Shown here piece after piece: positions 9,798-47,391 of a stretch of DNA of 64,000 nucleotides (within the stretch, counting starts at the first letter, position 1; the number at the start of each line of letters is the position of its first letter). The DNA is from Phycisphaerales bacterium (GTDB lineage: Bacteria > Planctomycetota > Phycisphaerae > UBA1845 > UTPLA1), in contig JACKHI010000001.1 in the NCBI GenBank assembly GCA_020639075.1, forward strand, positions 2,662,315 to 2,726,314, written 5' to 3'. The notes under the pieces were generated by a model. That model saw only the letters and a list, made by a program, of their open reading frames with translations. It ran no database searches and was not told the DNA's origin. The position numbers and the translations under genes are program-made.

Positions 9798-10601
9798 TTA
9801 CGCATGCTCCCAATAATCTGACGGCCTTGGCGGCTTCGAATCGTCGAAACCCTGCGATCTCAATTCGTGCGAAGTCACGACTTTCGTCGGTTCCCCGTGG
9901 ATCATCTTGAATAGCGTTTGGACCAACTCGACGTGGGCGGCCTTTGTGTCAAGGTAGCCTTGCATGATCTTCTTCAACAACTCGATGACTCGCTGGCCGT
10001 CTTCGCCTGCGTCCTCAATCCGCGAATGAAGGAGACCGCTTTCGAGCATACCTGCGGTAGGTGTTGTGGCCTGATGGTAGGAGCGGACGACGGATCGCAT
10101 CAGCATGACGAAGACATAGCGAGATCCGATTTCCTGGGCGGATTCGAAAGGTGGAACGACGCGCAGCTCGAACATCGCCTCCAGGTGTCTGAGCAACTCG
10201 CGATAGTATTCCTCGATGTCTTTGTGGATGTGCTCGCGCGTCGCCAGCAAATAGACATCGATCAAACGTTTCCAATCGTAGTCCCCGCCAGTGACGTCAT
10301 CGAATTGGTAGCCGGCGCCAAATCGACTTGCGGGCGTGACGTCGGACGTCGACTGATGGCGACACCCAAGTCGATACGCGCATGCGACCAACGGATAAAG
10401 GCAAATGGCGGCAAGTACCAAGTAGCCGAGCGACGCCGGATTCGCTGATTGGGCAGCCAGCTGCGCGATCGCCCAGATCTCTGCCGCCGCGAAAATGACG
10501 ACGCCCAGCCTGCAGAGTGAGACATACTGTTGCACCCGATGCCACATGCCGACCCTTTCCTTCTCTCCAGCCCGTCGTTTGACGATCGGCGAACGACTCA
10601 A
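9798..10601 (-). CDS. Hypothetical membrane protein
   Basis: Two N-terminal TM helices then a soluble domain with no recognisable family. Alternative start at 10547. Confidence 0.45.
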   Translation of the reverse strand: MSRSPIVKRRAGEKERVGMWHRVQQYVSLCRLGVVIFAAAEIWAIAQLAAQSANPASLGYLVLAAICLYPLVACAYRLGCRHQSTSDVTPASRFGAGYQFDDVTGGDYDWKRLIDVYLLATREHIHKDIEEYYRELLRHLEAMFELRVVPPFESAQEIGSRYVFVMLMRSVVRSYHQATTPTAGMLESGLLHSRIEDAGEDGQRVIELLKKIMQGYLDTKAAHVELVQTLFKMIHGEPTKVVTSHELRSQGFDDSKPPRPSDYWEHA

Positions 10602-11269: not shown

Positions 11270-11463
11270 CGGCGCTCACGAATTCGCCCCTTCAGCCATT
11301 GACCAATTACAAACTCGTCGGTTCTCAGATTCCAGCCAATGGTGCAGACCTGCTTTGACGGGCCGCGGCGAATGACGACGGCAAAGGGTTTCTCTCGTGC
11401 CACGAGAACGTGGATCCTTGCCGGTATCGGCGCCCTGCTTTCCTTTCCTTCCGCCATATGCAC
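11224..11463 (-). CDS. Hypothetical; possibly the frameshifted N-terminal part of 10598..11269
   Basis: 79-aa ORF ending inside the start of the next ORF. A frameshift or sequencing error is suspected. Confidence 0.25.
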   Translation of the reverse strand: MHMAEGKESRAPIPARIHVLVAREKPFAVVIRRGPSKQVCTIGWNLRTDEFVIGQWLKGRIRERRCDLSPNGRFMIYLP

Positions 11464-11584
11464 GTTCCTCCGGCCATGGTTCCTTTCACTGTCGTCAATC
11501 TGGCATTGTCGATTTTGCCCACCTCGCCAAGTATGCCGGCGCCGCTGTACCGACTCCCCTACGGTCGCGGCTCTGATCGGCGAT

Positions 11585-13813: not shown

Positions 13814-15354
13814 GACCGAATGGCATGTAGACATAACTTCTTTTACGACGCGCACTTACAAGCGGTTGCGCAATAGATGACCTCCCGTTGCAATGGTGTT
13901 GTCAAGTAAAGGCACCGTTACGACAGGAGGTCGATCATGCGTAGTTTGAGGGTTGCCGCCCGTGGGCTCAAGGGGCTTGTCGATTCCGAATGTCACTTTT
14001 CTCTTATTCCACAGGCGACCATCGATGCGATCAGTCGTGCGGTCGGGTATCGCGGCCGGCGTTGCTTTTGGACGCCGACTGTCATTGTGTGGACCTTCCT
14101 GCGACAGATCCTCGTCAGCAATTGCGCTTGCCGCGAGGCCGTCGCCATGACGATCAGCGGATCTCTCGCTCGCGATATTCAGCGACACGGCGAACCACAA
14201 TGTTCGATATCCGGTGATCCCAGCGCCTATGCACAGGCGCGTGGCAGACTCCCGCTGAAGTGGTTCGAGGCACTCCATCGGCGCATCTCCGACGATGTGT
14301 GCGGTCGCGTGGGCGACACGCTGCGCTGGTGCGGACGTCGCGTTCGCATCATCGACGGCGCGACGATCAGCATGCCGGATACGCCGGCGTTGCAGGCGGC
14401 ATTTCCGCAACCCCATGGTCAGAAGCCCGGCTGCGGTTTTCCACAACTTCGCCTGACGGCGATTTTCTGTCATGCGAGCAGCGCCCTGTTGGATCTGACG
14501 GTCGATGCGCTTCGCGTGCAGGAACTTCCCCTCTTGCGACGCATGCTCCAGCGGTTTGATTCCGGCGATGTCATCGTTGCCGATCGCGCCTATCAAAGCT
14601 ATGCAGACGTGGCGGAATGGCGACGTCACGGCATCGACGTGCTGCTGCGGCTGAATGAAGCACCGCTTCCGAATCTGCGGCCGTTGCGCCGTCTGGACCG
14701 CAACGACACGTTGATCGTGTGGCGTCGGCCGAAGAACCGCATACGACATCTTTCGCCGGAACAATGGGCGGTGTTGCCGGAATCGATGCACGTTCGACGG
14801 GTCGAAACGACTGTGGCTGCGTACGGATTCCGCACGCAGCACATCCAGGTATTGACGACCTTGCTTGACGAGGCGGCCTACTCGGCCGAATCGATTGCCG
14901 CGTTGTATCGTGATCGTTGGATGGCTGAGTTGAACCTGCGGAGCCTGAAGACAACGCTGAACATGGAAGTGCTCCGGGGAAAGTCGCCAGATATCGTTCG
15001 CAAGGAAGTGTACATGTACGCCGTGGCCTACAACCTGATTCGTTCGTTGATGTGGCGCGCGGCGAGGAGTCGCGATGGCGATCCGCGACGACTGAGTTTC
15101 GACGGAGCGCGGCAGCGAATCACAGCGATGGCGCCGTTCCTCGAAATCCTCCACGCACACAGCGATCGTGTCGCCTTGCTACAAAGACTCCTGGAACTCG
15201 TCGCCGCCGACAAGCTCCCGAATCGACCTGACCGAATCGAGCCTCGAGCCGTCAAACGCAGACCCAAGACGTACCTGCGGCTCACCCAATCACGATCCAA
15301 AATCCGCGCAAAACTCCGAAAAACTCACGCGGCTTAGCTTCATGCCATTCGGTC
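13814..15354 (+). mobile_element. IS4-family insertion sequence, copy A (about 1.54 kb)
   Basis: 14-bp perfect terminal inverted repeats GACCGAATGGCATG / CATGCCATTCGGTC. Single transposase ORF. Flanked by ggtcatcgacc on both sides (11-bp target duplication; only the 3-bp ATC overlap is also possible). Confidence 0.85.
13937..15337 (+). CDS. IS4-family DDE transposase
   Basis: 466 aa. VIVADRAYQSY and YRDRWMAELNLRSLK fit the IS4 Y-x2-R-x3-E-x6-K signature exactly. Confidence 0.9.
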   Translation: MRSLRVAARGLKGLVDSECHFSLIPQATIDAISRAVGYRGRRCFWTPTVIVWTFLRQILVSNCACREAVAMTISGSLARDIQRHGEPQCSISGDPSAYAQARGRLPLKWFEALHRRISDDVCGRVGDTLRWCGRRVRIIDGATISMPDTPALQAAFPQPHGQKPGCGFPQLRLTAIFCHASSALLDLTVDALRVQELPLLRRMLQRFDSGDVIVADRAYQSYADVAEWRRHGIDVLLRLNEAPLPNLRPLRRLDRNDTLIVWRRPKNRIRHLSPEQWAVLPESMHVRRVETTVAAYGFRTQHIQVLTTLLDEAAYSAESIAALYRDRWMAELNLRSLKTTLNMEVLRGKSPDIVRKEVYMYAVAYNLIRSLMWRAARSRDGDPRRLSFDGARQRITAMAPFLEILHAHSDRVALLQRLLELVAADKLPNRPDRIEPRAVKRRPKTYLRLTQSRSKIRAKLRKTHAA

Positions 15355-16135: not shown

Positions 16136-17677
16136 GACCGAATGGCATGAAGCTAAGCCGCGTGAGTTTTTCGGAGTTTTGCGCGGATTTTGGATCGTGA
16201 TTGGGTGAGCCGCAGGTACGTCTTGGGTCTGCGTTTGACGGCTCGAGGCTCGATTCGGTCAGGTCGATTCGGGAGCTTGTCGGCGGCGACGAGTTCCAGG
16301 AGTCTTTGTAGCAAGGCGACACGATCGCTGTGTGCGTGGAGGATTTCGAGGAACGGCGCCATCGCTGTGATTCGCTGCCGCGCTCCGTCGAAACTCAGTC
16401 GTCGCGGATCGCCATCGCGACTCCTCGCCGCGCGCCACATCAACGAACGAATCAGGTTGTAGGCCACGGCGTACATGTACACTTCCTTGCGAACGATATC
16501 TGGCGACTTTCCCCGGAGCACTTCCATGTTCAGCGTTGTCTTCAGGCTCCGCAGGTTCAACTCAGCCATCCAACGATCACGATACAACGCGGCAATCGAT
16601 TCGGCCGAGTAGGCCGCCTCGTCAAGCAAGGTCGTCAATACCTGGATGTGCTGCGTGCGGAATCCGTACGCAGCCACAGTCGTTTCGACCCGTCGAACGT
16701 GCATCGATTCCGGCAACACCGCCCATTGTTCCGGCGAAAGATGTCGTATGCGGTTCTTCGGCCGACGCCACACGATCAACGTGTCGTTGCGGTCCAGACG
16801 GCGCAACGGCCGCAGATTCGGAAGCGGTGCTTCATTCAGCCGCAGCAGCACGTCGATGCCGTGACGTCGCCATTCCGCCACGTCTGCATAGCTTTGATAG
16901 GCGCGATCGGCAACGATGACATCGCCGGAATCAAACCGCTGGAGCATGCGTCGCAAGAGGGGAAGTTCCTGCACGCGAAGCGCATCGACCGTCAGATCCA
17001 ACAGGGCGCTGCTCGCATGACAGAAAATCGCCGTCAGGCGAAGTTGTGGAAAACCGCAGCCGGGCTTCTGACCATGGGGTTGCGGAAATGCCGCCTGCAA
17101 CGCCGGCGTATCCGGCATGCTGATCGTCGCGCCGTCGATGATGCGAACGCGACGTCCGCACCAGCGCAGCGTGTCGCCCACGCGACCGCACACATCGTCG
17201 GAGATGCGCCGATGGAGTGCCTCGAACCACTTCAGCGGGAGTCTGCCACGCGCCTGTGCATAGGCGCTGGGATCACCGGATATCGAACATTGTGGTTCGC
17301 CGTGTCGCTGAATATCGCGAGCGAGAGATCCGCTGATCGTCATGGCGACGGCCTCGCGGCAAGCGCAATTGCTGACGAGGATCTGTCGCAGGAAGGTCCA
17401 CACAATGACAGTCGGCGTCCAAAAGCAACGCCGGCCGCGATACCCGACCGCACGACTGATCGCATCGATGGTCGCCTGTGGAATAAGAGAAAAGTGACAT
17501 TCGGAATCGACAAGCCCCTTGAGCCCGCGGGCGGCAACCCTCAAACTACGCATGATCGACCTCCTGTCGTAACGGTGCCTTTACTTGACAACACCATTGC
17601 AACGGGAGGTCATCTATTGCGCAACCGCTTGTAAGTGCGCGTCGTAAAAGAAGTTATGTCTACATGCCATTCGGTCA
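16136..17677 (-). mobile_element. IS4-family insertion sequence, copy B (inverted relative to A)
   Basis: Interior is the reverse complement of copy A with a single nucleotide difference (the paired antisense shadow ORFs 13856-15160 and 16330-17634 differ T vs A, and the overlapping 65-aa shadow ORFs V vs A; the 466-aa transposase proteins are identical). Same 14-bp IRs and identical flanking target sequence. Confidence 0.85.
16153..17553 (-). CDS. IS4-family DDE transposase (copy B)
   Basis: Protein identical to 13937..15337. Confidence 0.9.
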   Translation of the reverse strand: MRSLRVAARGLKGLVDSECHFSLIPQATIDAISRAVGYRGRRCFWTPTVIVWTFLRQILVSNCACREAVAMTISGSLARDIQRHGEPQCSISGDPSAYAQARGRLPLKWFEALHRRISDDVCGRVGDTLRWCGRRVRIIDGATISMPDTPALQAAFPQPHGQKPGCGFPQLRLTAIFCHASSALLDLTVDALRVQELPLLRRMLQRFDSGDVIVADRAYQSYADVAEWRRHGIDVLLRLNEAPLPNLRPLRRLDRNDTLIVWRRPKNRIRHLSPEQWAVLPESMHVRRVETTVAAYGFRTQHIQVLTTLLDEAAYSAESIAALYRDRWMAELNLRSLKTTLNMEVLRGKSPDIVRKEVYMYAVAYNLIRSLMWRAARSRDGDPRRLSFDGARQRITAMAPFLEILHAHSDRVALLQRLLELVAADKLPNRPDRIEPRAVKRRPKTYLRLTQSRSKIRAKLRKTHAA

Positions 17678-19837: not shown

Positions 19838-21238
19838 TTACCGCAGCAGCGAGAGAACCTGCGATGTCTGCTGACCCGCGACGCCGAGCAGCGAGATCGA
19901 CGACTGGAGCAGCGTGTTCTGACGCGAGAGCTCGGCCGTTTCCACGGCGAAGTCCACATCGTTGATCAGGCTTCGAGCGGACTCGAGCGAGATCTTGGTT
20001 GCGTTGAGTGAGTTGATCGATGTCTCCACCTGGAACTTCTGGAAGCCGCCGATGCGTCCTCGCTGAGTCGCAACCTGGTTGATCGCGCTCTTGGCGATCA
20101 GCACGGCGTTGTTCGCATTGGTGGAAAGATCGTTCGCGCCACCGCTCTTCAGTTCACTGAGGAAGCCGGTGTTCGTGTCGCCGAGTTCGTGGGCGAAGAT
20201 GGAGCTGATGCCCACAGTCGCCTGCGTATTGCTGGCCGTTCCAAGCTGGAAGGTCAGACCGCCGCCGGCGATATTCAGCGTACCGACGGAACCCGACGTC
20301 GTGTTGCCCGTCGCCGTCAGAGAGAATTCGCCGCTGGATCCGTTGGAGTTAAAGCTGACGCGAAGGCCATCGACGAACGCCTGCTGACCGTTAACAGTCA
20401 CAGACGCGTCGGTTCCTGTCGTCTGCTGAACGCCAGCGGCAAAGTCCGTGTCACCGCTGATGAACGTCGAGCCGACAAACGCGTTCGTGCCGTACTCGCG
20501 GCTCTGAATGTGAAGCTCGGTGCCGCTGACGGAAGCCGAGACGCCTGTCTCGCTCGCCGCGGCGATAATTTTGTCGCGAATATCCGTGATCGCGTCCGAT
20601 GCGGCGACGGTGATCGTCGCCGTGCCGGCTGTACCCGTCACAGTAAACTCGGCAGCGCTGATCGACACGCCGAGGTCGGCAACCGTCGCGGACGCGACGG
20701 TGCCTGCGGACTCGACGCTGACTGCGAAGCTCTGGCTCGAGTTCGATGTCGGTCGCGAGTAGAGCTTGACGTCGGTCACAAGCGTCGGTGACGACGCCGT
20801 CGCGCGGATGCCCTGCTGTCCGTCGAGCAGTCGTTTGCCGTTAAACGTCGTCGTCTGGACGATCCGGTTAATGGCATCGATCGCGTTATCAATCTGCGCC
20901 TGGTTCGCGGAGATTTCGGCGGCGCTGAGACCGCCGGAGCTGGTGCTCTGAGCGGCGAGGGTCTCGATTTCAGAGAGAAGGCTGCCGATTTCACCGAGCG
21001 ATGCGTCGGCAACGTCCAATACGGAGTTGGCGCGTTGGCCGTTGTTGATGGCGGCATCGACCGCGGTGAGTTCAGCGGACAAGCTCTGAACGGCGATCAA
21101 GCCCGCCGGATCATCCGAGCCCTTGTTGATCTTGAAACCGGTCGACAGCTTCGTCAGTGACGCTGACTGCTTTGCGGACGTCTGATTCAAGATGTTCAGA
21201 AGCGACAGTGTGTTGACATTGTTGACTGTAAGACCCAT
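19838..21238 (-). CDS. fliC: Flagellin
   Basis: Conserved flagellin N-terminal domain (LSLLNILNQTSAKQSASLTKLSTGFKINKGSDDPAGLIAVQ) and C-terminal domain (ETAELSRQNTLLQSSISLLGVAGQQTSQVLSLLR). Ser/Thr/Gly-rich variable centre. Confidence 0.9.
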   Translation of the reverse strand: MGLTVNNVNTLSLLNILNQTSAKQSASLTKLSTGFKINKGSDDPAGLIAVQSLSAELTAVDAAINNGQRANSVLDVADASLGEIGSLLSEIETLAAQSTSSGGLSAAEISANQAQIDNAIDAINRIVQTTTFNGKRLLDGQQGIRATASSPTLVTDVKLYSRPTSNSSQSFAVSVESAGTVASATVADLGVSISAAEFTVTGTAGTATITVAASDAITDIRDKIIAAASETGVSASVSGTELHIQSREYGTNAFVGSTFISGDTDFAAGVQQTTGTDASVTVNGQQAFVDGLRVSFNSNGSSGEFSLTATGNTTSGSVGTLNIAGGGLTFQLGTASNTQATVGISSIFAHELGDTNTGFLSELKSGGANDLSTNANNAVLIAKSAINQVATQRGRIGGFQKFQVETSINSLNATKISLESARSLINDVDFAVETAELSRQNTLLQSSISLLGVAGQQTSQVLSLLR

Positions 21239-30868: not shown

Positions 30869-30944
30869 CTTGTGGTAGCTCAATGGAAAGAGCATCAGGC
30901 TGAAAACCTGAACGTTGCCGGTTCGAATCCGGCCCACTCCGCCA
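30869..30944 (+). tRNA. tRNA-Phe (GAA) with non-canonical 5' acceptor strand (possibly defective)
   Basis: D-arm GCTC-AATGGAAA-GAGC. Anticodon arm TCAGG-CTGAAAA-CCTGA (anticodon GAA). T-arm GCCGG-TTCGAAT-CCGGC, then CCACTCC-G-CCA. Only 4 of 7 acceptor pairs form (5' CTTGTGG vs 3' CCACTCC). Confidence 0.55.
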
Positions 30945-38480: not shown

Positions 38481-38688
38481 CGATCCCCGCCCCCAAAGCC
38501 AGCAGGAAATCGGGCCATCTTGGGGCTTGCGGGCTTGAAGTATTCCACACATTTAGGTAGTTTGATTCCTGGGCGCCGGGGGGGATCGAGCCTTTCCGGC
38601 AGATTTTCATCGTCAGACGCGGCGGGCCCGCTTTGGCAAACACAATTCAGTCATTACGAACCAAGCGGAAGCGATTCTGGGGAGAATC

Positions 38689-41600
38689 ATGAACCGATTC
38701 AACATCCTGGCCGGTGGATTGATCTGTCTGTTCGGATTTGTCAGTATCACGGGCGGCGCAACGCTGTCGCCGGTGATTGACGGGTATGTCTCGAACACCG
38801 TAGCGAACGGTCCGTTTATCAACGTCAATACAACGGGCGATTCCGCGCTTGCGCTGGTCCAGTCGAGCCACGAGGATCGAGCGATCTTCGAATTTGATGT
38901 TCGAAGCTACGGCAGCGGCGCTGTGATTGACAGTCTGTCGTTTCGCTTTCGCATTGTGGCGTCAAACTCCAGCAGTCAAGGGCCGCACACGATCAACTTC
39001 TATGCTTACTCCGGAGACGGCGCGATCACAGCTGCCGATGCGACGGTATCTGGGACATTGATCGGTTCGTTGGTCGCTCCCGATCTCGGAGTGATGGAGA
39101 TTGCCGTTGACGGCGCGACGATCGAGGCATTGATTCAGTCGTCGGACTACCTGGGAATCCGCATTCAATCGACGGGTCCCGGCGGCATTTTCGTCGGAAC
39201 GACGGAGCATTTCGTTGCGGAATTCAGGCCGACGCTCTCGCTGTTGCCGGATCGCGTGTGGCATGTCAATGACGATGCAGCGCCCGGCGGCGACGGTCTG
39301 ACCTGGGCGACGGCTTTCAACGACCTCCAGATGGCAATGGACAGCGCCCAGCCCGGTGAGGAAATCTGGGTGGCGGAAGGCGTCTATCGCCCGACCAAAC
39401 GCACGATTGCAGCGGACCCGCGATCGGCGACATTCGAACTGCGTAACGGCACACGGCTCTACGGCGGTTTTCACGGATTCGAAACAACGCGCCGAATCCG
39501 GCATCCGTTCGAAATCAAGTCGACGCTGCACGGCGACCTGCTTGCTGACGACGTCGGGTTTTCGAATCGCGGAGACAACGCGTATCACGTCGTCAGCGCG
39601 TTGTTCGGCACGACGGATGCAGTCATCGACGGATTCGATATCACTCGCGGCAATGCCTCGGGTGCAACGCCGGATCGGCAGATCGGCGCAGGGTTCTACG
39701 CCAGCTCGGGGACGCCATACGTCCGTAACTGCACGATTCGAGACAACAGTGCGAGCAACCAGGGCGACGGCGCGTATTGCTCCAATTCGTCGGGCAATAC
39801 CTACTTCATCAATTGCATCTTCGATCAACATACATCGGGGGAAGCGCTTCGACTTTCCGGCTCAACGACGAATGCCACGATCCTGAACTGCCTGTTCACG
39901 CGATACGATCGTGGATTGATCACGGGTACGGCAACGGCACATGTGACCAATTCGATCTTCAAAGCCAACACGGGGTTTACGACATTCGAATCCGACCATA
40001 TCAGCGGCAACATCATCATCAATCGTTCGTGCGTTCAAAATTGGACGGGGAACTTCGGCGGCCAGGGGAACTTCGGCGATGATCCGATGCTCGTCTCATT
40101 CGGCACGAGTGGATCGGATTATCACACGCTGCCGGGCTCACCTTGCCGGGACGCGGGCGACGCATCCGATTTCCCGCCGGACATCGACGATTTGGACGAG
40201 GACGGCGACTTCGACGAACCGATGCCGATCGATCTGAGCGGTCAGACCCGAATTGCCGACGACACATGCCAGGCGGATACCGGCGTTCCGGATGCCGGCG
40301 GCGCAGTCATCGACATCGGTCCATACGAGTATTCCCCGACGCAGCCGGCGCCGACGACGAGTCGATTGTATGTGGACCCAATGGCGATGGGCGCAAACAA
40401 CGGTACGAGTTGGTCGGACGCCTTCGTCGAGCTGCGCGATGCGATGGATGCGGCGTATTACCATCCGTGCGCAGGCGTCGAGGAAATCTGGGTCGTGTCG
40501 GGAACTTATCTGCCGTCGGATGCGGCCGATCGATTCGCGAGTTTCAAGCTGTCCGACGATGTGAAAGTCTACGGAGGGTTCAGCGGCGGCGAGAATGCGC
40601 TCGAACAGCGCAATGCAGATCCGATGACGAACGGGTCCATACTCAGCGGAAACATCGGAGACGCAAACGCGACGGACAACGTGTACACTGTCGTCGACGT
40701 GACTCGATCGAGCGCGCTGGCGACGCTGGACGGCTTCACGATCACCGGCGGATATGCCGATCAACGCTCGTCGACATCGCCTCGCGGAACGGGCGGCGGG
40801 ATCTTCGGGCTCGAATCCAACTTGCATCTTCGGAATCTGCGAATCACAGACAATATCGCGTACGTCGGCGGCGGCGTGAATATTGACGACGGCAATCCCG
40901 TGTTTGAGGACTGCACGATCGACTCAAACACACTCTTCGAGAACGTCAATGTCAACCGCGCGGCGGGCGTGAACATCGGCATCGGCCTGCGACCCGAGTT
41001 TCGTCGCTGCCGATTCCTCAACAACCAACGAGAGACGGCGATCGGCGGCGCCCTGTCGTTTCGTGGATCCGTCGGGCGAATACCGATTGTGGACTGTGAT
41101 TTCGAGGACAACATCGCAGGCATCGGCGGCGCGATCAGCTACGACCTGAACGCATCCGTGGATATCGTGAATTGCCGGTTCAGGAACAATCGCGGATACG
41201 TCGAGAGTTTCCCCAACTCGCACAGCGGCGCGCTCTTCCTTCTGGGAGGCGACGTCACGTTGACCAATTGCGAATTCGTCGGGAACGTCGGCCGCAATTT
41301 CGGCGGCGCGATCGTTTCGGGCTACCTGTCGAATCTAGAGATCTCGAATTGCACTTTCACCGACAACCATACAGACGGAAATGGCGGCGGGATCATTGCG
41401 ATCGCATCCACGATCACGATTCGCAACAGCATCCTCTGGGGCAATACGGACAACGGCGGCGCGAACGGCGACGCAGGCGCACAGATATACGATGAGTCCT
41501 CTGACGGACCGAACACGATCACGATGGAGTACAGTTGCGTGCAGGACGGCAACCCCGGCGACGGAAGCGTCTATGTTGGGGCAGGAAACATCGATGTGGA

Positions 41601-42252
41601 TCCCCAGTTCGTCGGGGTGGATGATGTACATCTGTCGATGACATCGCCGTGCCTCGATGCTGGTGACAACACCGGCGTTGCGCCCGACGTGCTCGATATC
41701 GATGGCAATGCCGATACCGCGGAACCCATTCCGTATGATCTGGACGGCGTCGCACGTTTCAGTGACGCGCCCGCCGTGGATACGGGCAATCCTGACGGTG
41801 TTCATCCCATCGTGGATATGGGTGCGTATGAACTGGTCTCGAGTTTCGTCGCGCGCCTGGGCGACATGAACTGCGATACGCTCGTGGATGGGCGGGATGT
41901 CGAGCCGTTTATCTTGGCGATGACCGATCCGCTGGAATTCATGGCACGCTATCCCGACTGCAATGCGGCAAACGGCGACATCGACGAGAACAGCGTTCTG
42001 GAACTGGCGGACCTGCCAGGCTTCATCTACCTCCTGCTCGATCGCTCGGTTGAATTTCGCCCGGGCGACATGAATTGTGATGGTTTGGTGAACGGCATCG
42101 ACGTCGGCGCGTTCGCCCTGGCTGTGACGGACCCGGCGCATTTTGAGTCGACATTCCCGAACTGCTCGTTGTTGAACGGGGATTTGAGCGGCGATCAAAC
42201 GGTACAGCTTGACGATCTGCCGTTCTTCGTGGACCTGCTGCTCGCTGACTAG
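38689..42252 (+). CDS. Large secreted right-handed beta-helix (pectate-lyase fold) protein with three C-terminal dockerin-like repeats
   Basis: 1187 aa. Signal peptide. Two pectin-lyase-fold regions with the N..T..N/IRDN repeats. C-terminal GDMNCDTLVDGRDVEPF..., GDMNCDGLVNGIDVGAF... repeats, the same module as the esterase at 18395-19561. Confidence 0.7.
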   Translation: MNRFNILAGGLICLFGFVSITGGATLSPVIDGYVSNTVANGPFINVNTTGDSALALVQSSHEDRAIFEFDVRSYGSGAVIDSLSFRFRIVASNSSSQGPHTINFYAYSGDGAITAADATVSGTLIGSLVAPDLGVMEIAVDGATIEALIQSSDYLGIRIQSTGPGGIFVGTTEHFVAEFRPTLSLLPDRVWHVNDDAAPGGDGLTWATAFNDLQMAMDSAQPGEEIWVAEGVYRPTKRTIAADPRSATFELRNGTRLYGGFHGFETTRRIRHPFEIKSTLHGDLLADDVGFSNRGDNAYHVVSALFGTTDAVIDGFDITRGNASGATPDRQIGAGFYASSGTPYVRNCTIRDNSASNQGDGAYCSNSSGNTYFINCIFDQHTSGEALRLSGSTTNATILNCLFTRYDRGLITGTATAHVTNSIFKANTGFTTFESDHISGNIIINRSCVQNWTGNFGGQGNFGDDPMLVSFGTSGSDYHTLPGSPCRDAGDASDFPPDIDDLDEDGDFDEPMPIDLSGQTRIADDTCQADTGVPDAGGAVIDIGPYEYSPTQPAPTTSRLYVDPMAMGANNGTSWSDAFVELRDAMDAAYYHPCAGVEEIWVVSGTYLPSDAADRFASFKLSDDVKVYGGFSGGENALEQRNADPMTNGSILSGNIGDANATDNVYTVVDVTRSSALATLDGFTITGGYADQRSSTSPRGTGGGIFGLESNLHLRNLRITDNIAYVGGGVNIDDGNPVFEDCTIDSNTLFENVNVNRAAGVNIGIGLRPEFRRCRFLNNQRETAIGGALSFRGSVGRIPIVDCDFEDNIAGIGGAISYDLNASVDIVNCRFRNNRGYVESFPNSHSGALFLLGGDVTLTNCEFVGNVGRNFGGAIVSGYLSNLEISNCTFTDNHTDGNGGGIIAIASTITIRNSILWGNTDNGGANGDAGAQIYDESSDGPNTITMEYSCVQDGNPGDGSVYVGAGNIDVDPQFVGVDDVHLSMTSPCLDAGDNTGVAPDVLDIDGNADTAEPIPYDLDGVARFSDAPAVDTGNPDGVHPIVDMGAYELVSSFVARLGDMNCDTLVDGRDVEPFILAMTDPLEFMARYPDCNAANGDIDENSVLELADLPGFIYLLLDRSVEFRPGDMNCDGLVNGIDVGAFALAVTDPAHFESTFPNCSLLNGDLSGDQTVQLDDLPFFVDLLLAD

Positions 42253-42623
42253 GGATGTGAAGCGGCGTCGCGCGAGCAACGCACGATGGCTCCGCAGTCG
42301 GCTGCTGAAACCAATGCCGGATCGACCGTGCGATGGTCACAATCGGCCCGGATTCACGGAACGGAATCGACCCCGCGGATTGGTCGGCCGAGCCGACTGG
42401 CCCTCGGCGATCATACTAACGCAACGCCATATGATTCAGTGATTTATGTCACGCCGCCCGCGCGCAATCCGGCCTGAGGGCGGTTCTCGCCAAGGGTGCC
42501 GATAGGCGAGCGCGGATCGTTGAATCCCGTCCGAAAACTCGATATCATAGCTGACTGAGACGCGCGGATTGCGCGCCTGGGAAAGTAGCAAGTCTCTCGT
42601 CTCGAAGAAGGGAATAAAGAAGC

Positions 42624-43340
42624 ATGTTCAATCGACGACATCAAACGGCGGTCGCGGCTTTGGCGATCGTCGCGCTCTTTGCGACGCTGCCGGCAACGGC
42701 TGCGGAAATAGAAGTCGGCTCAGCCATGGGAACGGTCACACTGAACAGCGACACCGTCGGAACCGTTGATCCGATCGCCGGGACGGATGCGTTCCAGTGG
42801 ACCGGCAACATGACGAACTCGACGATGGGCTGGGGGCTCACGTGGGATCTGACGATCGATCCGGACCCCGGAATCTCCGGCGTTGCGGCGTTCACGAATC
42901 TGACCGGCGTCACGATGAACTTCACGTATAACGTGTCGGCGCTCTCGACGATTGCGATCGGCAGCCCGACGGTATTCGGCTCATCGGCGATTACCGTGAC
43001 TGACGGCGTATCGCTCGGCGGTGCGACGATGTCGGCGTTGACGGGCGACTCGATCTACAACGCGTTTATCAATGCGGCGACGCAGGGAACGTTGTTCAAC
43101 GATCCCTATTCGCTCGTCGCCCCACAGTTCGGATCCAACTCCGACAACGCGAGCTGGGGACCGCAGGCGGCGACTGGACCGCTGGCCATCGGCGACACGT
43201 TCGGCATCAATCACGACTTCAGCCTGACGCCGGGCGACCAGGCGACGGTCAACAGCAATTTCTTCATCATTCCGGAACCGGCGACGCTGGGCTTGCTCGC
43301 GTTCGGCGGCATCGTCATGCTTCGACGCCGCAGTCGCTGA
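42624..43340 (+). CDS. PEP-CTERM sorting-domain protein
   Basis: Signal peptide, Thr/Gly-rich body, C-terminal IPEPATLGLLAFGGIVMLRRRSR (PEP motif, TM helix, basic tail). Confidence 0.75.
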   Translation: MFNRRHQTAVAALAIVALFATLPATAAEIEVGSAMGTVTLNSDTVGTVDPIAGTDAFQWTGNMTNSTMGWGLTWDLTIDPDPGISGVAAFTNLTGVTMNFTYNVSALSTIAIGSPTVFGSSAITVTDGVSLGGATMSALTGDSIYNAFINAATQGTLFNDPYSLVAPQFGSNSDNASWGPQAATGPLAIGDTFGINHDFSLTPGDQATVNSNFFIIPEPATLGLLAFGGIVMLRRRSR

Positions 43341-43373
43341 ATCATACGGAATCACCTGATTAGACAAGAAGGC

Positions 43374-43405
43374 CGATCGCGTTTGCGATCGGTCTTTTTT
43401 TGTGT
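43374..43405 (+). terminator. Rho-independent terminator
   Basis: ggccgatcgc-gttt-gcgatcggtc followed by TTTTTTTGTG. Confidence 0.6.
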
Positions 43406-43499
43406 TCTTCACGCATTTGCGAGACGACACCCTGTATTCGTCCCTGCCCCTCAGAACTTTGGGCAGCAAGGCTCTTGACGACCATTGAAGCCCCGAAAA

Positions 43500-43800
43500 A
43501 AGTGGTCCATCACTGAATATCGTGAAGCTCCGTTGGCATCTGCGGTAGCGCAAGTACCGCGTCCCGATAGGGACGCGCTGAGAATAGCCCAGCCTTTCAA
43601 GGCTGGGATTGATAGTTGGTTACTACCATCGCCGTGCCGTAGGTACGGCGCGACTCCGCGCATCAAGCTCATCCCGTCCTGCTGGGCAACGCCGTGAACT
43701 GAACACAGCTGCGGCAGCACCAGTCAGAGAAACTATGAGCGTGTTCCCCCGGTTGGGATAATTGACCCAAGTTGTTAGAGACGGGTTTGGTTATCTCACG
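43500..43800 (+). ncRNA. Candidate IS110 bridge/seeker RNA in the element's 5' leader
   Basis: Stable hairpins: gcggta-gcgcaag-taccgc (43542-43560), cgcgtccc-gata-gggacgcg (43558-43577), cccagcc-tttcaa-ggctggg (43588-43607), gccgtgcc-gta-ggtacggc (43631-43649). Confidence 0.35.
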
Positions 43801-43816
43801 AACGGAGGAACTCACA

Positions 43817-44848
43817 ATGTTATATGTTGGCATGGACGTACATCTGTTGTCTACCACGATTTGCATTTTTGATCCGACGGCGGACGAACGGCGTCGATAT
43901 CGCACGGTGAAGGTCCCGACGACCGCCGAGGCGATTCGTGGAGTGCTCGAGCCGCTGAACGGGGATTGCAAGGCCGTTTTCGAGATCGGTCCTCATGCCC
44001 AGGCGATCATGGCCATTGTCAAACCCCTGGCCGCCGACGTTCTGGTCGCCAACCCATCCCTGATCCCGTGGCTCTTTCGCGACGGTCGCAAGAACGACAA
44101 GATCGACGCACGCAAGTTGGTGACGTTGCTCTATCTGAACCAGGTGCCGACGGTGCATCTGCCGAGGGCCGACATCGCCGCGTGGCGGGCGCTGATCAAC
44201 CATCGCCGCACCGTGGTGAAGCGTCGCACCAGGGTCAAGAACCAGATTCGCTCGATCCTCCGCGCCTACCTGTACCGCTGCCCGCACAGGAGTTGCTGGA
44301 CGCGAGTCGGACGAATCTGGCTCTCGTCGCTGGCCTTCGACGAACTTCGTCAGTTCATGGTCGAATCGCAGACGGCGGAACTGGACGGGCTCGACGAGAA
44401 GCTGAACGACATTCATCGCCAACTCGATCGGATCGCCAGGCTGCATTCGGACGTGGCGCTGCTACAGACGATTCCCGGCGTGGGACCGCGCACTGCAGAA
44501 GCCGTCGTTGCCTTTACCGACGGCGTCAAACGCTTCCGCGATGGCAAACAGTTCTCGAGTAACTTCGGGGTCGTGCCGACGCTGGATGTCTCGGATGGTC
44601 GCGGCCGCGAAGGATGTATATCGCGGCGCGGCGCCAGCGTGGTGCGTTGGCTGGTCGTCGAGGCGGCGCATGTGGTGATCCGACGCAACCCCGAAATGCG
44701 CGCCTTCTTCGAGCGAGTCCATCGCGGCAGGAAGGATCGGTACAAGAAGGCCATCGTCGCGACGGCTCGCAAGTTGTTGGTGATCGCGTATGCGATGATG
44801 CGGGATCAATCGAAATTCGCACCACAGCGCGTGAGTGCGGCCGCATGA
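43817..44848 (+). CDS. IS110-family transposase (DEDD N-terminal domain plus Transposase_20 C-terminal domain)
   Basis: N-terminus MLYVGMDVH...EIGPHAQ (DEDD_Tnp_IS110). C-terminus LLQTIPGVGPRTAEAVVAFTDGVKRFRDGKQFSSNFGVVPTLDVSDGR. RBS ACGGAGGAA. Confidence 0.85.
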   Translation: MLYVGMDVHLLSTTICIFDPTADERRRYRTVKVPTTAEAIRGVLEPLNGDCKAVFEIGPHAQAIMAIVKPLAADVLVANPSLIPWLFRDGRKNDKIDARKLVTLLYLNQVPTVHLPRADIAAWRALINHRRTVVKRRTRVKNQIRSILRAYLYRCPHRSCWTRVGRIWLSSLAFDELRQFMVESQTAELDGLDEKLNDIHRQLDRIARLHSDVALLQTIPGVGPRTAEAVVAFTDGVKRFRDGKQFSSNFGVVPTLDVSDGRGREGCISRRGASVVRWLVVEAAHVVIRRNPEMRAFFERVHRGRKDRYKKAIVATARKLLVIAYAMMRDQSKFAPQRVSAAA

Positions 44849-45448
44849 TCCGACCGTCGCGAGGCCTCCGATTGGGTGAAGGCCCCGCGATCGGTCGAAT
44901 CATGCTGAGGGTGTAAGACGAAAAAGTGCCGGCGACTGGCGTTGAAAAGGTCGCGGCGGACAGGAGCGTGAAACGGGTCAAGAACGACGGGATGAATTGG
45001 AGTGAGCCCGAACGTGGCGGCTTGATCGTCGAACGGTTGAAAGAACCGCCGGCAGATCGATTCCAGAGAATGGGCCACTCCCCCTGCAAAATCTCATGTG
45101 CCCCGGCCGCATCGAAAGCTACGGAAGGTGAGCACGAATCAGAAGCCTGGAACATTATCCGTCAAAAAATCCCGCCCCTTGACAAACACACGCTCATAGA
45201 AGCCGCCGTGTCCTCACGGCGGAGTCATGCCCATGTACGCTGGATGATTCGCCACGCTGAGACGGTGAGGCACTGATTAGAGCATTCAGTTCACGGCGTT
45301 GCCCGCTGGGACGGGACCTGAAAAACGGCCGCCAACCCCCCGTTGCAGACGGGGGGCCATTCTCATGTGATCCCTGCGGGATCCGGAGTGGATACATCTG
45401 TCGCTCTTGTACCAAGACACCGAATCATCCCGATTTTCCGTGATGAAC

Positions 45449-45968: not shown

Positions 45969-46323
45969 CACCTGTCTCCCTTTGTCGTGCGCGGCACTCG
46001 GCCTCTTGAGGATCGCTGCCCGAGCCCCCTTTCCGCTGTGCATATGAAAATAGCAGAGATTGTGGCCATCCTGCAACAATAATATGCAGCATCTCCACAC
46101 ACTGCCGCGTGACTCTCGAATTCTAGCAGAAGGCCGCCATACCTCTGACGCTTCCATCGGGGCTCCACGATTCGAAATACTCCCAATTCACTACTGCGCG
46201 GCACTCCCGGATCGAGTTGCCATGCCGGCGAGAATTCTGAAATCGCCTCCACTTCGCGGAACACCGGTCAAGGATGAGTCCCGAATTGCACGAGTGAATT
46301 CGGCCATATTTCGGGAGGTCAAC

Positions 46324-47391
46324 ATGACAAGTTCAATGGTCCATTCAGCGGAGCGAGCGCGGCCGCAGGAATGCGAGCGGATCGCGCTTGAGGCGACACA
46401 AGTGTGTCACAGTGAGCAAATATCGGCGCCGCCGGTGCGCGTTCTGATCGTGCCCTGGGGTGAAGTCCGCAGCGCTTCCGGAGACTTCGTCGTCGATGCC
46501 GACGGCGCGGCACAGGCGATTGCGGCGTTCTCGGCGCACGGCGCGGATCTGCCGGTAGACTACGAACATCAGACGCTCGGTGGAACCTACGCGTCGCCAA
46601 ACGGACAAGCCCCCGCCGCCGGTTGGATCACGGGGCTTCGTGTCGTGACGCCAAGCGGCGATCGCGCGCCCGGCGCATCCGCAATCAACTCAGCCTTGTC
46701 GGACGAGACCGACTCGCACAGCTTGAGCGTCAACGACGACGGTTCCGGAACATCCCGACCGGCACCGGGCATCTGGGCGGACGTATCCTGGACGGACGAC
46801 GCAAAGCAGCATCTCGCGGCGCGGCGCTATCGCTATCTCTCGCCGGTCGCGCTGGTACGCAAGGCCGATCGCAAATTGATCGGCGTGCACTCCGTTGCGC
46901 TGACGAACAAGCCGGCGATCGTGGGCATGACGCCGGTCGTGAATCGGTCGGCGACGATCGAAGCGGAGTCGCTGGATCTCGCGCCGCTGAAGTCGGTGCT
47001 GCGCCTCGACGACTCGGCGTCGGCGACGGCGATCGTCGCGGGGGCAGTGTCTCGCGTGCGCGAACTCGAGCGGCGGGAGACCGAGCGAGAGGCGGCGCGA
47101 CGCGTCGAGGAGGCGTGCCGGTCCGGCAAGCTCGCGGCGCCGCAGCGCGACTGGGCGTTCGCATTGGCCCTGAAGGATGCCGCGGAGTTCGATCGCTGGC
47201 TGGCAAGTGCGCCTGTCGTCGTTCCGCTCGGGCGTTCGACGGCGCCGGGCCCGGGATCTGCATCGCACGCCGGCTTTCAACGCTCCGCGGCTTCATCGGC
47301 GAAAGCCGAGTGGCAGGCGAATCGTGCATTCCTGGAGCGTCTCTGCACGGAAGAGGCGTATGTCGCGACGGCGCTGCGCGACGTGAACTAA
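46324..47391 (+). CDS. Mu-like prophage protein I (head maturation protease/scaffold, gp32-like)
   Basis: VRVLIVPWGEVRSASGDFVVDADGAAQAIAAFSAHGADLPVDYEHQT resembles the Mu I N-terminal domain. Coiled-coil C-terminal region. GGGAGG RBS before ATG 46324. Confidence 0.7.
   Translation: MTSSMVHSAERARPQECERIALEATQVCHSEQISAPPVRVLIVPWGEVRSASGDFVVDADGAAQAIAAFSAHGADLPVDYEHQTLGGTYASPNGQAPAAGWITGLRVVTPSGDRAPGASAINSALSDETDSHSLSVNDDGSGTSRPAPGIWADVSWTDDAKQHLAARRYRYLSPVALVRKADRKLIGVHSVALTNKPAIVGMTPVVNRSATIEAESLDLAPLKSVLRLDDSASATAIVAGAVSRVRELERRETEREAARRVEEACRSGKLAAPQRDWAFALALKDAAEFDRWLASAPVVVPLGRSTAPGPGSASHAGFQRSAASSAKAEWQANRAFLERLCTEEAYVATALRDVN

What the first reader, a model, noticed from the sequence alone, without database searches (positions are those of the whole stretch)
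43420..43816. IS110-family element with a 400-bp hairpin-rich 5' leader that is a candidate bridge (seeker) RNA
IS110-subgroup elements carry a structured non-coding RNA in the left end. It base-pairs with both target and donor DNA to program the DEDD/serine-like recombinase. Here the transposase gene is preceded by an unusually long non-coding stretch containing at least four stable stem-loops. The 3' flank after the gene is short. This layout matches the IS110-subgroup arrangement (bridge RNA 5' of the recombinase gene), not the IS1111 subgroup (3' location). The element also sits right after a terminator hairpin, a common target for this family.
Basis: partly seen in the sequence, partly recalled or inferred. 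Interest (0 to 1): 0.55.

Follow-up and report, generated by a model that had tools for sequence, protein, structure and literature searches.

The report
IS1111-type element, bridge RNA downstream
The gene is a genuine IS110-family RNA-guided transposase. The hairpin-rich 5' "leader" is host DNA outside the mobile element, and the guide (bridge/seek) RNA lies downstream of the gene, as in the known IS1111 subgroup.

Summary
The hairpin-rich non-coding stretch 43420-43816 and the IS110-family transposase gene (43817-44848) are real.

- **Left boundary.** Three other copies with the identical protein share DNA only from 43725 to 45209. Only about 90 bp upstream of the ATG belong to the element. 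Positions 43420-43724 match nothing in about 100 related loci.
- **Layout.** The element has the IS1111 arrangement: a 12-bp subterminal inverted repeat (43733-43744 / 45188-45199), a short left end, and a 352-361 bp right non-coding end.
- **RNA.** The right end holds a 216-nt structured RNA (44973-45188). It is conserved downstream of the gene in 80+ relatives. Its pairs are 96% standard, against 35-41% in slid controls.
- **Guides.** Two loop segments covary with the insertion junctions (0 of 10,000 permutations each). GGCGGCUU (45016-45023) complements AAGCCGCC at the right junction. CAGAGAA (45064-45070) equals the left junction. They overlap at a probable AG core, giving the target CAG-AG-CCGCC, which is present at all three insertion sites. 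A third segment (45141-45147) tracks the right donor end.

Verdict: a new member of a known kind, an IS1111-group element with a right-end bridge/seek RNA. Interest is modest.

The parts
43366..43399 (+). Intrinsic terminator of the upstream PEP-CTERM protein gene (42624-43340). It is host DNA, about 325 nt away from the element.
   Evidence: 15-pair stem plus T-run; PEP-CTERM
43400..43724 (.). It is NOT part of the element. It contains the left arm of a 32-nt inverted repeat (43672-43703) and a sub-threshold Acido-Lenti-1-like double hairpin on the minus strand (43560-43607).
   Evidence: copies diverge left of 43725; no match in any relative; z = -3.2
43725..43729 (+). Left target half CAG (43725-43727) plus the probable core dinucleotide AG (43728-43729). 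It is shared by all copies because all three sit in the same target.
   Evidence: uninterrupted CAGAGCCGCC look-alikes in the L001 flanks
43730..45202 (+). Mobile element proper, 1473 bp counting one core copy (boundaries +/- 2 nt). The DNA shared between copies is 43725-45209 (1485 bp).
   Evidence: L003 is a 1485-bp repeat-collapsed contig matching exactly 43725-45209
43733..43744 (+). Left subterminal inverted repeat CTATGAGCGTGT
   Evidence: I12, 12 nt, 100% complementary to 45188-45199; conserved in relatives
43817..44848 (+). IS110-family DEDD RNA-guided transposase, 343 aa. D7, E56, D94, D97 and S259 are invariant among homologues. A GGAGG ribosome-binding site lies upstream.
44973..45188 (+). 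Structured non-coding RNA (bridge/seek RNA). An outer helix pairs GGGUCAAG..CGGG (44975-) with CCCG..CUUGACA (-45184) and encloses a target-binding module, a variable hairpin and a multiloop.
   Evidence: 96.1% of cells paired; 30 of 37 pairs with changes on both sides
44998..45082 (+). Target-binding module: a stem, an internal loop carrying guides S1 and S2, and a distal hairpin. It is 85 nt, the size of the published short seekRNAs.
   Evidence: helices 3 and 4; PMC11187229 section 9
45016..45023 (+). Guide S1, GGCGGCUU. It is complementary to the top strand AAGCCGCC (45200-45207), that is A + core AG + right target half.
   Evidence: cognate 6.33 vs non-cognate 3.57 nt; 0 of 10,000 permutations
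45064..45070 (+). Guide S2, CAGAGAA. It has the same sense as the top strand 43725-43731 (left target half + core AG + first 2 nt of the element), so it would pair with the bottom strand.
   Evidence: 7.26 vs 4.60; 0 of 10,000
45141..45147 (+). Guide S3, AGAAGCC, in the multiloop. It has the same sense as the right end 45198-45204 (donor end + core + 2 nt). It tracks the A/G variants of CTCATRGRAGC in relatives.
   Evidence: 7.44 vs 5.13; 0 of 10,000
45188..45199 (+). Right subterminal inverted repeat ACACGCTCATAG
   Evidence: I12
45201..45209 (+). Core AG (45201-45202) plus the right target half CCGCCGT (45203-45209). CCGCCGTG is the 5' arm of the host hairpin CCGCCGTG-TCCT-CACGGCGG (45203-45222).
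45285..45316 (.). Right arm of the 32-nt host inverted repeat that brackets the insertion site. With the element removed, the site folds into one long hairpin.
   Evidence: I1, 88%; -99.6 kcal/mol, z = -6.3

Best explanation
Positions 43730-45202 are a 1.47-kb insertion sequence of the IS1111 subgroup of the IS110 family.

**Components.** It encodes a DEDD/Ser recombinase (43817-44848). In its long right non-coding end it encodes a ~216-nt structured guide RNA (44973-45188, same strand as the gene).

**Target recognition.** The RNA's internal loop carries two short guides.
- S1 (45016-45023) pairs with the top strand of core + right target half (AG-CCGCC).
- S2 (45064-45070) pairs with the bottom strand of left target half + core (CAG-AG).
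- Together they specify the ~10-nt target CAGAGCCGCC, with exchange at an AG core.

**Donor recognition.** A multiloop segment, S3 (45141-45147), matches the element's right end. It most likely holds the donor (the circularised element) in the same complex.

**Reaction (inferred).** The recombinase then exchanges strands at the core, leaving AG on both sides and no other duplication.

**The leader.** The hairpin-rich DNA at 43420-43724 is host intergenic sequence. It forms half of a large palindrome into which the element inserted.

**What is shown and what is inferred.**
- Shown: the boundaries, the subterminal repeats, the RNA structure covariation, and the guide/junction covariation.
- Inferred from the published IS1111/IS621 mechanism: transcription of the RNA, its binding to the recombinase, the circular intermediate, and the exact cleavage positions.
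For: **Boundaries.**
- Identical protein at two other sites of GCA_020639055.1, plus a 1485-bp collapsed contig. Shared DNA is 43725-45209.
- In relatives, the left end is conserved only from ~43728. The right non-coding end is conserved up to ~45206. The leader is not found anywhere.

**Subgroup.** A 12-bp subterminal inverted repeat. Left non-coding end ~87-92 nt against right ~352-361 nt. These are the published IS1111 criteria (PMC11208160; PMC11187229).

**RNA structure.**
- Model R1 finds it once in the window, at 44973-45188.
- It is found downstream of the gene, on the gene's strand, in loci including a ~40%-identity clade that was not used for training.
- 96.1% of cells are paired against 35-41% when partners are slid. 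391 cells have changes on both sides. G-U pairs fix the strand.

**Guides.**
- S1, S2 and S3 match their own junctions better than those of other elements (0 of 10,000 permutations each). The four cross-controls show at most about 0.3 nt excess, against 2.3-2.8 nt for the cognate pairings; one control still reached 46 of 10,000 permutations.
- Near-identical elements at different sites differ in the flank but not in the guide: L004 vs L016 and L037 vs L010. The matched bases outside the core are therefore target-derived.
- The guide order (top-strand match 5' of bottom-strand match, overlapping in the target) is the one reported for IS1111-type seekRNAs.
- All three copies sit in CAG-AG-CCGCCGT.
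Against: - No expression data exist, and no sigma-70-like promoter was found in the linear element.
- A guide for the left donor end (AG-AAACTATGAG) was not identified. The candidate CUCAUG (45094-45099) varies among relatives while the left end does not.
- The AG core rests on uninterrupted look-alike sites, not on a true empty site. In one subclade the right-junction core reads AA, which is compatible only through G·T / U·G wobble.
- The transposase has S-D where 25 of 30 homologues have the S-G motif.
- The covariation counts were made on an alignment fitted to the model.
- Phylogenetic placement among reference IS1111 transposases was not tested.
Confidence: 0.88

Rival explanations
1. One reading: the element is IS110-subgroup, the 400-bp 5' leader (43420-43816) is its left end, and the leader encodes the bridge RNA.
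For: The leader is non-coding and more structured than shuffles. It directly precedes the transposase gene.
Against: - Copies at other sites share nothing left of 43725.
- Nothing in ~100 related loci matches the leader.
- The element has a 12-bp subterminal repeat and a long conserved right end.
- The covariance model of the family's RNA scores at most 2.6 bits in the leader.
- There is no Rfam hit above threshold.
Confidence: 0.02
2. The conserved right-end sequence is not a guide RNA. It would instead be a DNA-level feature (transposase-binding sites, duplicated end sequences, or a 3' UTR or terminator). The matches to the junctions would then be by-products of end duplication.
For: - S3 and the helix arm CTTGACA resemble end-proximal DNA motifs, and TTGAC also occurs in the left end.
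- The outer helix varies little within the close clade.
- There is no expression evidence.
Against: - 30 of 37 pairs show compensatory changes, and there are many G-U pairs that would be C-A on the other strand.
- S1 is the reverse complement, not a copy, of the junction. It tracks bases that lie outside the element (L004/L016).
- The same architecture has been shown experimentally to be an RNA in IS1111 elements.
Confidence: 0.05
3. The hairpin-rich flank is a functional host or mobile feature in its own right. It could be a palindromic MITE/REP-like element, or a small RNA of the Acido-Lenti-1 type on the minus strand. The element used it only as a landing site. This is compatible with the best explanation.
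For: - The reconstructed empty site folds into one long hairpin closed by 32-nt arms, z = -6.3.
- Parts of the right flank recur next to or near the other two copies.
- The Acido-Lenti-1 match covers the full model at 28.1 bits, E = 1.4e-4 in the 390-nt search.
- Relatives also sit in hairpins: L004, L006, L046.
Against: - The Acido-Lenti-1 score is below the gathering threshold of 37.
- No further copy of the flank or its hairpins occurs in the 64-kb window.
- The complete genome could not be scanned.
Confidence: 0.3

Closest known systems
IS1111-family elements with a 3' seekRNA / bridge RNA (ISEc11, ISPa11, ISKpn4; Siddiquee et al. 2024, PMC11187229; Durrant et al. 2024, PMC11208160)
   Same: - Subterminal inverted repeats with short terminal extensions.
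- Short left end and long right non-coding region.
- Transposase of 330-350 aa.
- RNA encoded downstream of the gene.
- The top-strand match lies 5' of the bottom-strand match, and the two overlap in the target.
- Donor-matching bases lie in a multiloop.
- No duplication beyond the shared core.
- Hairpin / REP-type targets.
   Different: - Host is Planctomycetota (Phycisphaerales).
- At most 32% protein identity to any plasmid-borne IS110-family gene.
- Own target (CAGAGCCGCC) and a probable AG core.
- S-D instead of the S-G motif.
- The RNA, its processing and its activity are untested here.
IS621 / ISCro4 (IS110 subgroup; bridge RNA in the left end; PDB 8wt6, 9t56)
   Same: - DEDD + Ser recombinase fold family (phmmer E = 2.9e-7 and 3.5e-11).
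- Two-strand recognition of the target around a 2-nt core.
   Different: - The RNA is on the opposite side of the gene.
- Long (12 bp) rather than 2-3 bp subterminal repeats.
- The guide order is reversed.
- The donor loop is a multiloop rather than an internal loop.
- Only the C-terminal domain aligns by sequence.
ISPpu9 / ISPpu10 / ISPa11 (REP-targeting IS1111-type elements)
   Same: Insertion into extragenic palindromic DNA, with an RNA gene downstream of the transposase gene (PMC12288879 abstract).
   Different: The target palindrome here is not a detectable high-copy REP family in the 64-kb window.

Membership tests
IS110 family (DEDD RNA-guided transposases) | N-terminal DEDD (RuvC-like) domain plus C-terminal Transposase_20 domain | tested here: met
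   Pfam PF01548 (E = 9.6e-15) and PF02371 (E = 1e-19). NCBIfam NF033542, 221 bits against a cutoff of 140.
IS110 family (DEDD RNA-guided transposases) | Catalytic D-E-D-D residues and the conserved C-terminal Ser | tested here: met
   D7, E56, D94, D97 and S259 are invariant in 30 homologues. The residue after the Ser is D here, against G in 25 of 30.
IS110 family (DEDD RNA-guided transposases) | Site-specific, oriented insertion without a target duplication beyond a short shared core | tested here: met
   Three copies all lie in CAG-AG-CCGCCGT. Only AG is repeated at both junctions.
IS1111 subgroup | Subterminal inverted repeats of 7-17 bp | tested here: met
   12 bp, 43733-43744 / 45188-45199, 100% complementary. 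Criterion from PMC11208160.
IS1111 subgroup | Long non-coding region downstream of the transposase gene and a short one upstream | tested here: met
   Left 87-92 nt, right 352-361 nt. The same holds in relatives.
IS1111 subgroup | Guide RNA in the right end, with the top-strand match 5' of the bottom-strand match | tested here: met
   S1 at 45016-45023 lies 5' of S2 at 45064-45070. Criterion from PMC11187229 section 9.
IS1111 subgroup | Transposase clusters with IS1111-type transposases (330-350 aa; G-L-x-P-x4-S/T-G motif) | tested here: inconclusive
   The length of 343 aa fits. The motif reads G-V-V-P-T-L-D-V-S-D. No reference IS1111 proteins were available for a tree; the attempt via plasmid hit L103 failed.
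   The left end is ~90 nt and the leader lies outside the element. The right end is long, and the repeat is 12 bp.
Bridge / seek RNA | Conserved secondary structure supported by covariation | tested here: met
   96.1% paired against 35-41% slid; 30 of 37 pairs with changes on both sides; 0 of 500 shuffles. Caveat: the alignment was fitted to the model.
Bridge / seek RNA | Loop segments complementary to both strands of the target around a core, changing with the target | tested here: met
   S1 and S2 against cognate versus non-cognate junctions, 0 of 10,000 permutations each. The cross-controls show at most about 0.3 nt excess.
Bridge / seek RNA | Segments matching both donor ends | tested here: inconclusive
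   The right-end guide S3 covaries. No convincing guide for the left donor end was found.
Bridge / seek RNA | The RNA is made, binds the recombinase and is required for transposition | not testable with these tools
   Needs RNA-seq, co-purification or transposition assays.
Acido-Lenti-1 RNA (RF01687), for the flank | Score at or above the Rfam gathering threshold | tested here: not met
   28.1 bits against 37, at 43560-43607 on the minus strand.

The most novel reading that the evidence does not exclude
The Planctomycetota clade to which this element belongs may have a modular guide system. At least three diverged relatives (L027, L017, L005/L018) carry a second, shorter target-binding module directly after the first RNA. 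In L017 and L027 it is the second module, not the first, that matches the actual insertion site. If both modules are functional, one element could hold two target specificities, or could switch targets by module duplication. The window's own copy has only one module. Its most novel aspect would be that its landing site is a ~170-bp palindromic element of unknown nature.
Probability: 0.15. Interest if true: 0.55.

Novelty: new member of a known kind. Interest (0 to 1): 0.27.

Why it matters
This corrects an annotation-level error of subgroup, boundaries and RNA location.

It also gives a well-supported example of an IS1111-type bridge/seek RNA from Planctomycetota. The example comes with a family alignment, a covariance model, a readable guide code (target CAG-AG-CCGCC, probable AG core) and natural retargeting across dozens of relatives. 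That may be useful as another orthogonal RNA-guided recombinase candidate.

It does not reveal a new mechanism.

Tried and rejected
- **Rfam** at gathering and at E <= 10. There is no bridge-RNA family hit anywhere, not even over the real RNA. Only the sub-threshold Acido-Lenti-1 match appeared in the flank.
- **Empty allele.** I looked up the upstream PEP-CTERM protein. The only contig with DNA (L102) stops at window 43574, before the site.
- **Genome scan**. It returned 12 relatives but not the window's own genome, so the full copy census could not be made.
- **Placing the protein among named IS1111 elements** through plasmid hits. The best hits are unnamed 'IS110 family transposase' at <= 32% identity. 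L103 is not IS5075 (no Tn21 inverted-repeat motifs nearby), and its match region does not read as one full-length ORF.
- **Left-donor guide.** The candidate CUCAUG at 45094-45099 matches ATGAG of the left repeat, but it varies in relatives while the repeat does not. I left this unresolved.
- **Junction promoter.** On a modelled circle, TTGACA (45179-45184) would be followed after 17 nt by GAAACT, only 3 of 6 matches to a -10 box. No sigma-70-like site occurs in the linear element either. I do not claim one.
- **attC-like reading of the host palindrome.** The arms do not fit RYYYAAC / GTTRRRY, by eye.
- **Target as a high-copy repeat.** There is no further CAGAGCCGCC or hairpin copy in the window.
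- **End structure of the distant ~40% clade**. Its right ends lie further downstream and could not be defined, so I did not use it for donor-guide covariation.

Full report
**1. What is at the coordinates**

Positions 43341-43816 are non-coding. The stretch 43420-43816 folds with an MFE of -155.6 kcal/mol, against -128.5 +/- 6.1 for shuffles (z = -4.4). The part that turns out to be flank, 43400-43724, still gives z = -3.2. The ORF 43817-44848 (343 aa, GGAGG upstream) matches Pfam DEDD_Tnp_IS110 and Transposase_20. It also matches NCBIfam NF033542, 'IS110 family RNA-guided transposase', at 221 bits against a cutoff of 140. An intrinsic terminator of the upstream PEP-CTERM gene lies at 43366-43399. 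The raw observation, a hairpin-rich non-coding stretch before an IS110-family gene, is therefore real.

**2. Where the element begins and ends**

The identical protein is encoded at two other sites of assembly GCA_020639055.1 (L001, L002) and on a 1485-bp repeat-collapsed contig (L003).

- BLAST and alignments show that the copies share DNA only from window 43725 (CAGAGAAACTATGAG...) to 45209 (...CTCATAGAAGCCGCCGT). L003 spans exactly that interval.
- Left of 43725 the three sites are unrelated (...CACCAGT, ...GCCAAT, ...TTGTAAG).
- I collected about 100 loci with relatives at 37-86% protein identity. The last ~90 nt before the ATG are conserved in more than 50 of them. The alignment always starts at position 1-4 of 43725-43816.
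- The 361 nt after the stop codon are conserved in 46 loci, up to window ~45206.
- The sequence 43341-43724 matches none of them, either upstream or downstream.

The leader is not part of the element.

**3. Subgroup**

A perfect 12-bp inverted repeat lies just inside the ends: CTATGAGCGTGT at 43733-43744 and ACACGCTCATAG at 45188-45199. The left non-coding end is ~90 nt and the right one 352-361 nt. The published criteria for the IS1111 subgroup are subterminal repeats of 7-17 bp, a short left end, a long right end and the RNA in the right end (PMC11208160; PMC11187229). The statement that 'the 3' flank after the gene is short' is therefore wrong, and the layout is the opposite of the one proposed.

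**4. The RNA**

The conserved right-end block was aligned (A4/A5) and a covariance model was built (R1).

- In the window the model hits once, at 44973-45188 on the plus strand. With filters off, nothing in the leader exceeds 2.6 bits.
- In the loci it gives 88 hits. All are on the gene's strand, nearly all downstream of its stop codon (two overlap a mis-extended or broken reading frame). They include the ~40%-identity clade L062-L095, which was not in the training set (24-52 bits).
- On the resulting alignment, 96.1% of cells form standard pairs, against 35-41% when partners are slid by 1-3 columns. 30 of 37 pairs show changes on both sides (391 cells), and 0 of 500 shuffles reach the observed values.
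- Frequent G-U pairs fix the strand as the gene's strand. One caveat applies: the alignment was fitted to the model.

The architecture has four parts:
- an outer helix, GGGUCAAG..CGGG with CCCG..CUUGACA;
- a target-binding module at 44998-45082, made of a stem, an internal loop and a distal hairpin;
- a variable hairpin;
- a multiloop.

**5. Guides**

Three variable segments track the junction sequences.

- **S1** (45016-45023, GGCGGCUU) is the reverse complement of AAGCCGCC at the right junction (45200-45207).
- **S2** (45064-45070, CAGAGAA) equals the left junction 43725-43731.
- **S3** (45141-45147, AGAAGCC) equals 45198-45204. It follows the A/G variants of CTCATRGRAGC in relatives.

I compared each element's guide with its own junction and with other elements' junctions, measured as the longest common substring.

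| Guide | Cognate (nt) | Non-cognate (nt) | Permutations reaching the observed value |
|---|---|---|---|
| S1 | 6.33 | 3.57 | 0 of 10,000 |
| S2 | 7.26 | 4.60 | 0 of 10,000 |
| S3 | 7.44 | 5.13 | 0 of 10,000 |

The four cross-controls show at most about 0.3 nt excess, although one of them (S2 against the right junction) still reached only 46 of 10,000 permutations.

Near-identical elements at different sites keep the guide while the flank differs by a base. L004 has AG-CCTGCGG and L016 has AG-CCTGAGG. L037 has ATC-AG and L010 has GTC-AG, with S2 reading GUCAG. The matched bases outside AG are therefore target, not element.

S1 (the top-strand match) lies 5' of S2 (the bottom-strand match), and the two overlap in the target. 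This is what has been reported for IS1111-type seekRNAs.

**6. Target and core**

The left junction reads NNN-AG-AAACTATGAG and the right junction CTCATAGA-AG-CNNNN. Only AG is common to both.

Uninterrupted look-alikes of the fused site occur in several places:
- CAGAGCCGCC occurs twice in the flanks of L001;
- CAGAGCCGCGAC occurs next to relatives L023 and L028, and the right junction of other relatives (for example L009 and L099) reads AG-CCGCGAC.

I therefore place a 2-nt core AG at 43728-43729 and 45201-45202. The mobile unit is then 43730-45202 (1473 bp), and the target is CAG-AG-CCGCC(GT), which is present at all three sites.

This is inference, because no true empty site or circle junction was available. 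In the L054-type subclade the right-junction core reads AA, which fits only with G·T / U·G wobble.

**7. The landing site**

With the element removed, 43660-43729 joined to 45203-45330 folds into one long hairpin closed by the 32-nt arms 43672-43703 and 45285-45316 (z = -6.3). The right target half is the 5' arm of a small hairpin, CCGCCGTG-TCCT-CACGGCGG. Relatives also sit in hairpins (L004, L006, L046). In L002 the site lies 5 nt after a terminator. Here the terminator is 325 nt away.

The nature of the host palindrome is unknown. It is not repeated in the window.

**8. Comparison and verdict**

The element works like the experimentally characterised IS1111-family elements (ISEc11, ISPa11, ISKpn4). 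It meets every structural membership criterion I could test. Phylogenetic placement, RNA expression and activity were not tested.

It is distant from anything on plasmids (<= 32% identity) and from the solved IS110-group recombinases (ISCro4 E = 3.5e-11, IS621 E = 2.9e-7, C-terminal domain only).

Two points remain open. No left-donor guide was found. The transposase has S-D in place of the S-G motif. Three copies encoding the identical protein argue that this form has moved.

The result is a new member of a known kind.

Noticed in passing
L027:3456-3582, L017:2398-2518, L005:4474-4517, L018:2809-2852: Some relatives carry a second, shorter target-binding module (guide, hairpin, guide, then the outer-helix 3' arm and the intact subterminal repeat) directly after the first full RNA. 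In L017 and L027 the second module's guide (GUCGCGGC / GCGCGGC) matches the real right junction AG-CCGCGACC. The first module's guide (CACUGCGGC) does not. The window's element has a single module.
   Followed up: partly
window 43560-43607 (minus strand): Full-length but sub-threshold match to Rfam Acido-Lenti-1 (28.1 bits against a gathering score of 37; E = 1.4e-4 in the 390-nt search). It consists of two hairpins joined by GGCUAUU, inside the host flank.
   Followed up: partly
window 43672-43703 and 45285-45316: A 32-nt inverted repeat (88%) in host DNA brackets the insertion. The reconstructed empty site is a ~170-nt palindrome (z = -6.3) of unknown nature, possibly a MITE/REP-like element or a regulatory hairpin.
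   Followed up: partly
window 45250-45278; L001:13110-13138 (minus); L002:~11437-11467: A ~30-nt motif (CGCCACGCTGAGACGGTGAGGCAC) recurs near all three copies of the element. The whole right flank 45203-45281 is ~74% identical to the right flank of L002. This suggests the target lies in a low-copy repeated host sequence.
   Followed up: no
L001:~9880-9908 and 11394-11430: The L001 copy is flanked by two further uninterrupted target-like motifs (TTCAGAGCCGCCGATG upstream; AGCAGAGCCGCCCTGTCCTCAGGGCGGAGT downstream). Together with the occupied site this makes three tandem CAGAGCCGCC sites.
   Followed up: no
window 43817-44848, residue 260: The transposase has Asp after the invariant Ser259. Of 30 homologues, 25 have Gly (the S-G motif reported as essential in Piv), 4 have Ala, and only this protein has Asp. 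The three copies nevertheless encode the identical protein.
   Followed up: partly
window 13937-15337 (+) and 16153-17553 (-): Two ORFs of identical length (466 aa) with identical Pfam scores, both DDE_Tnp_1 transposases. They lie in inverted orientation ~800 bp apart. This is a second, unrelated insertion sequence present twice, in a composite-transposon-like arrangement.
   Followed up: no
window 46060-47391 (+): An ORF with a Mu-like prophage I protein domain (E = 5e-48). The region to the right of the element may be a Mu-like prophage.
   Followed up: no
window 19838-21238 (-) and 30872-30937 (+): A flagellin gene (Flagellin_N / Flagellin_C) and a tRNA gene. The tRNA is the only Rfam gathering-level hit in the window.
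   Followed up: no
L102 (= window 38624-43574): A public read-run assembly contig that is 100% identical to the window ends at 43574, inside the hairpin cluster and 150 nt before the element. The perfect palindromes there probably break assemblies.
   Followed up: no
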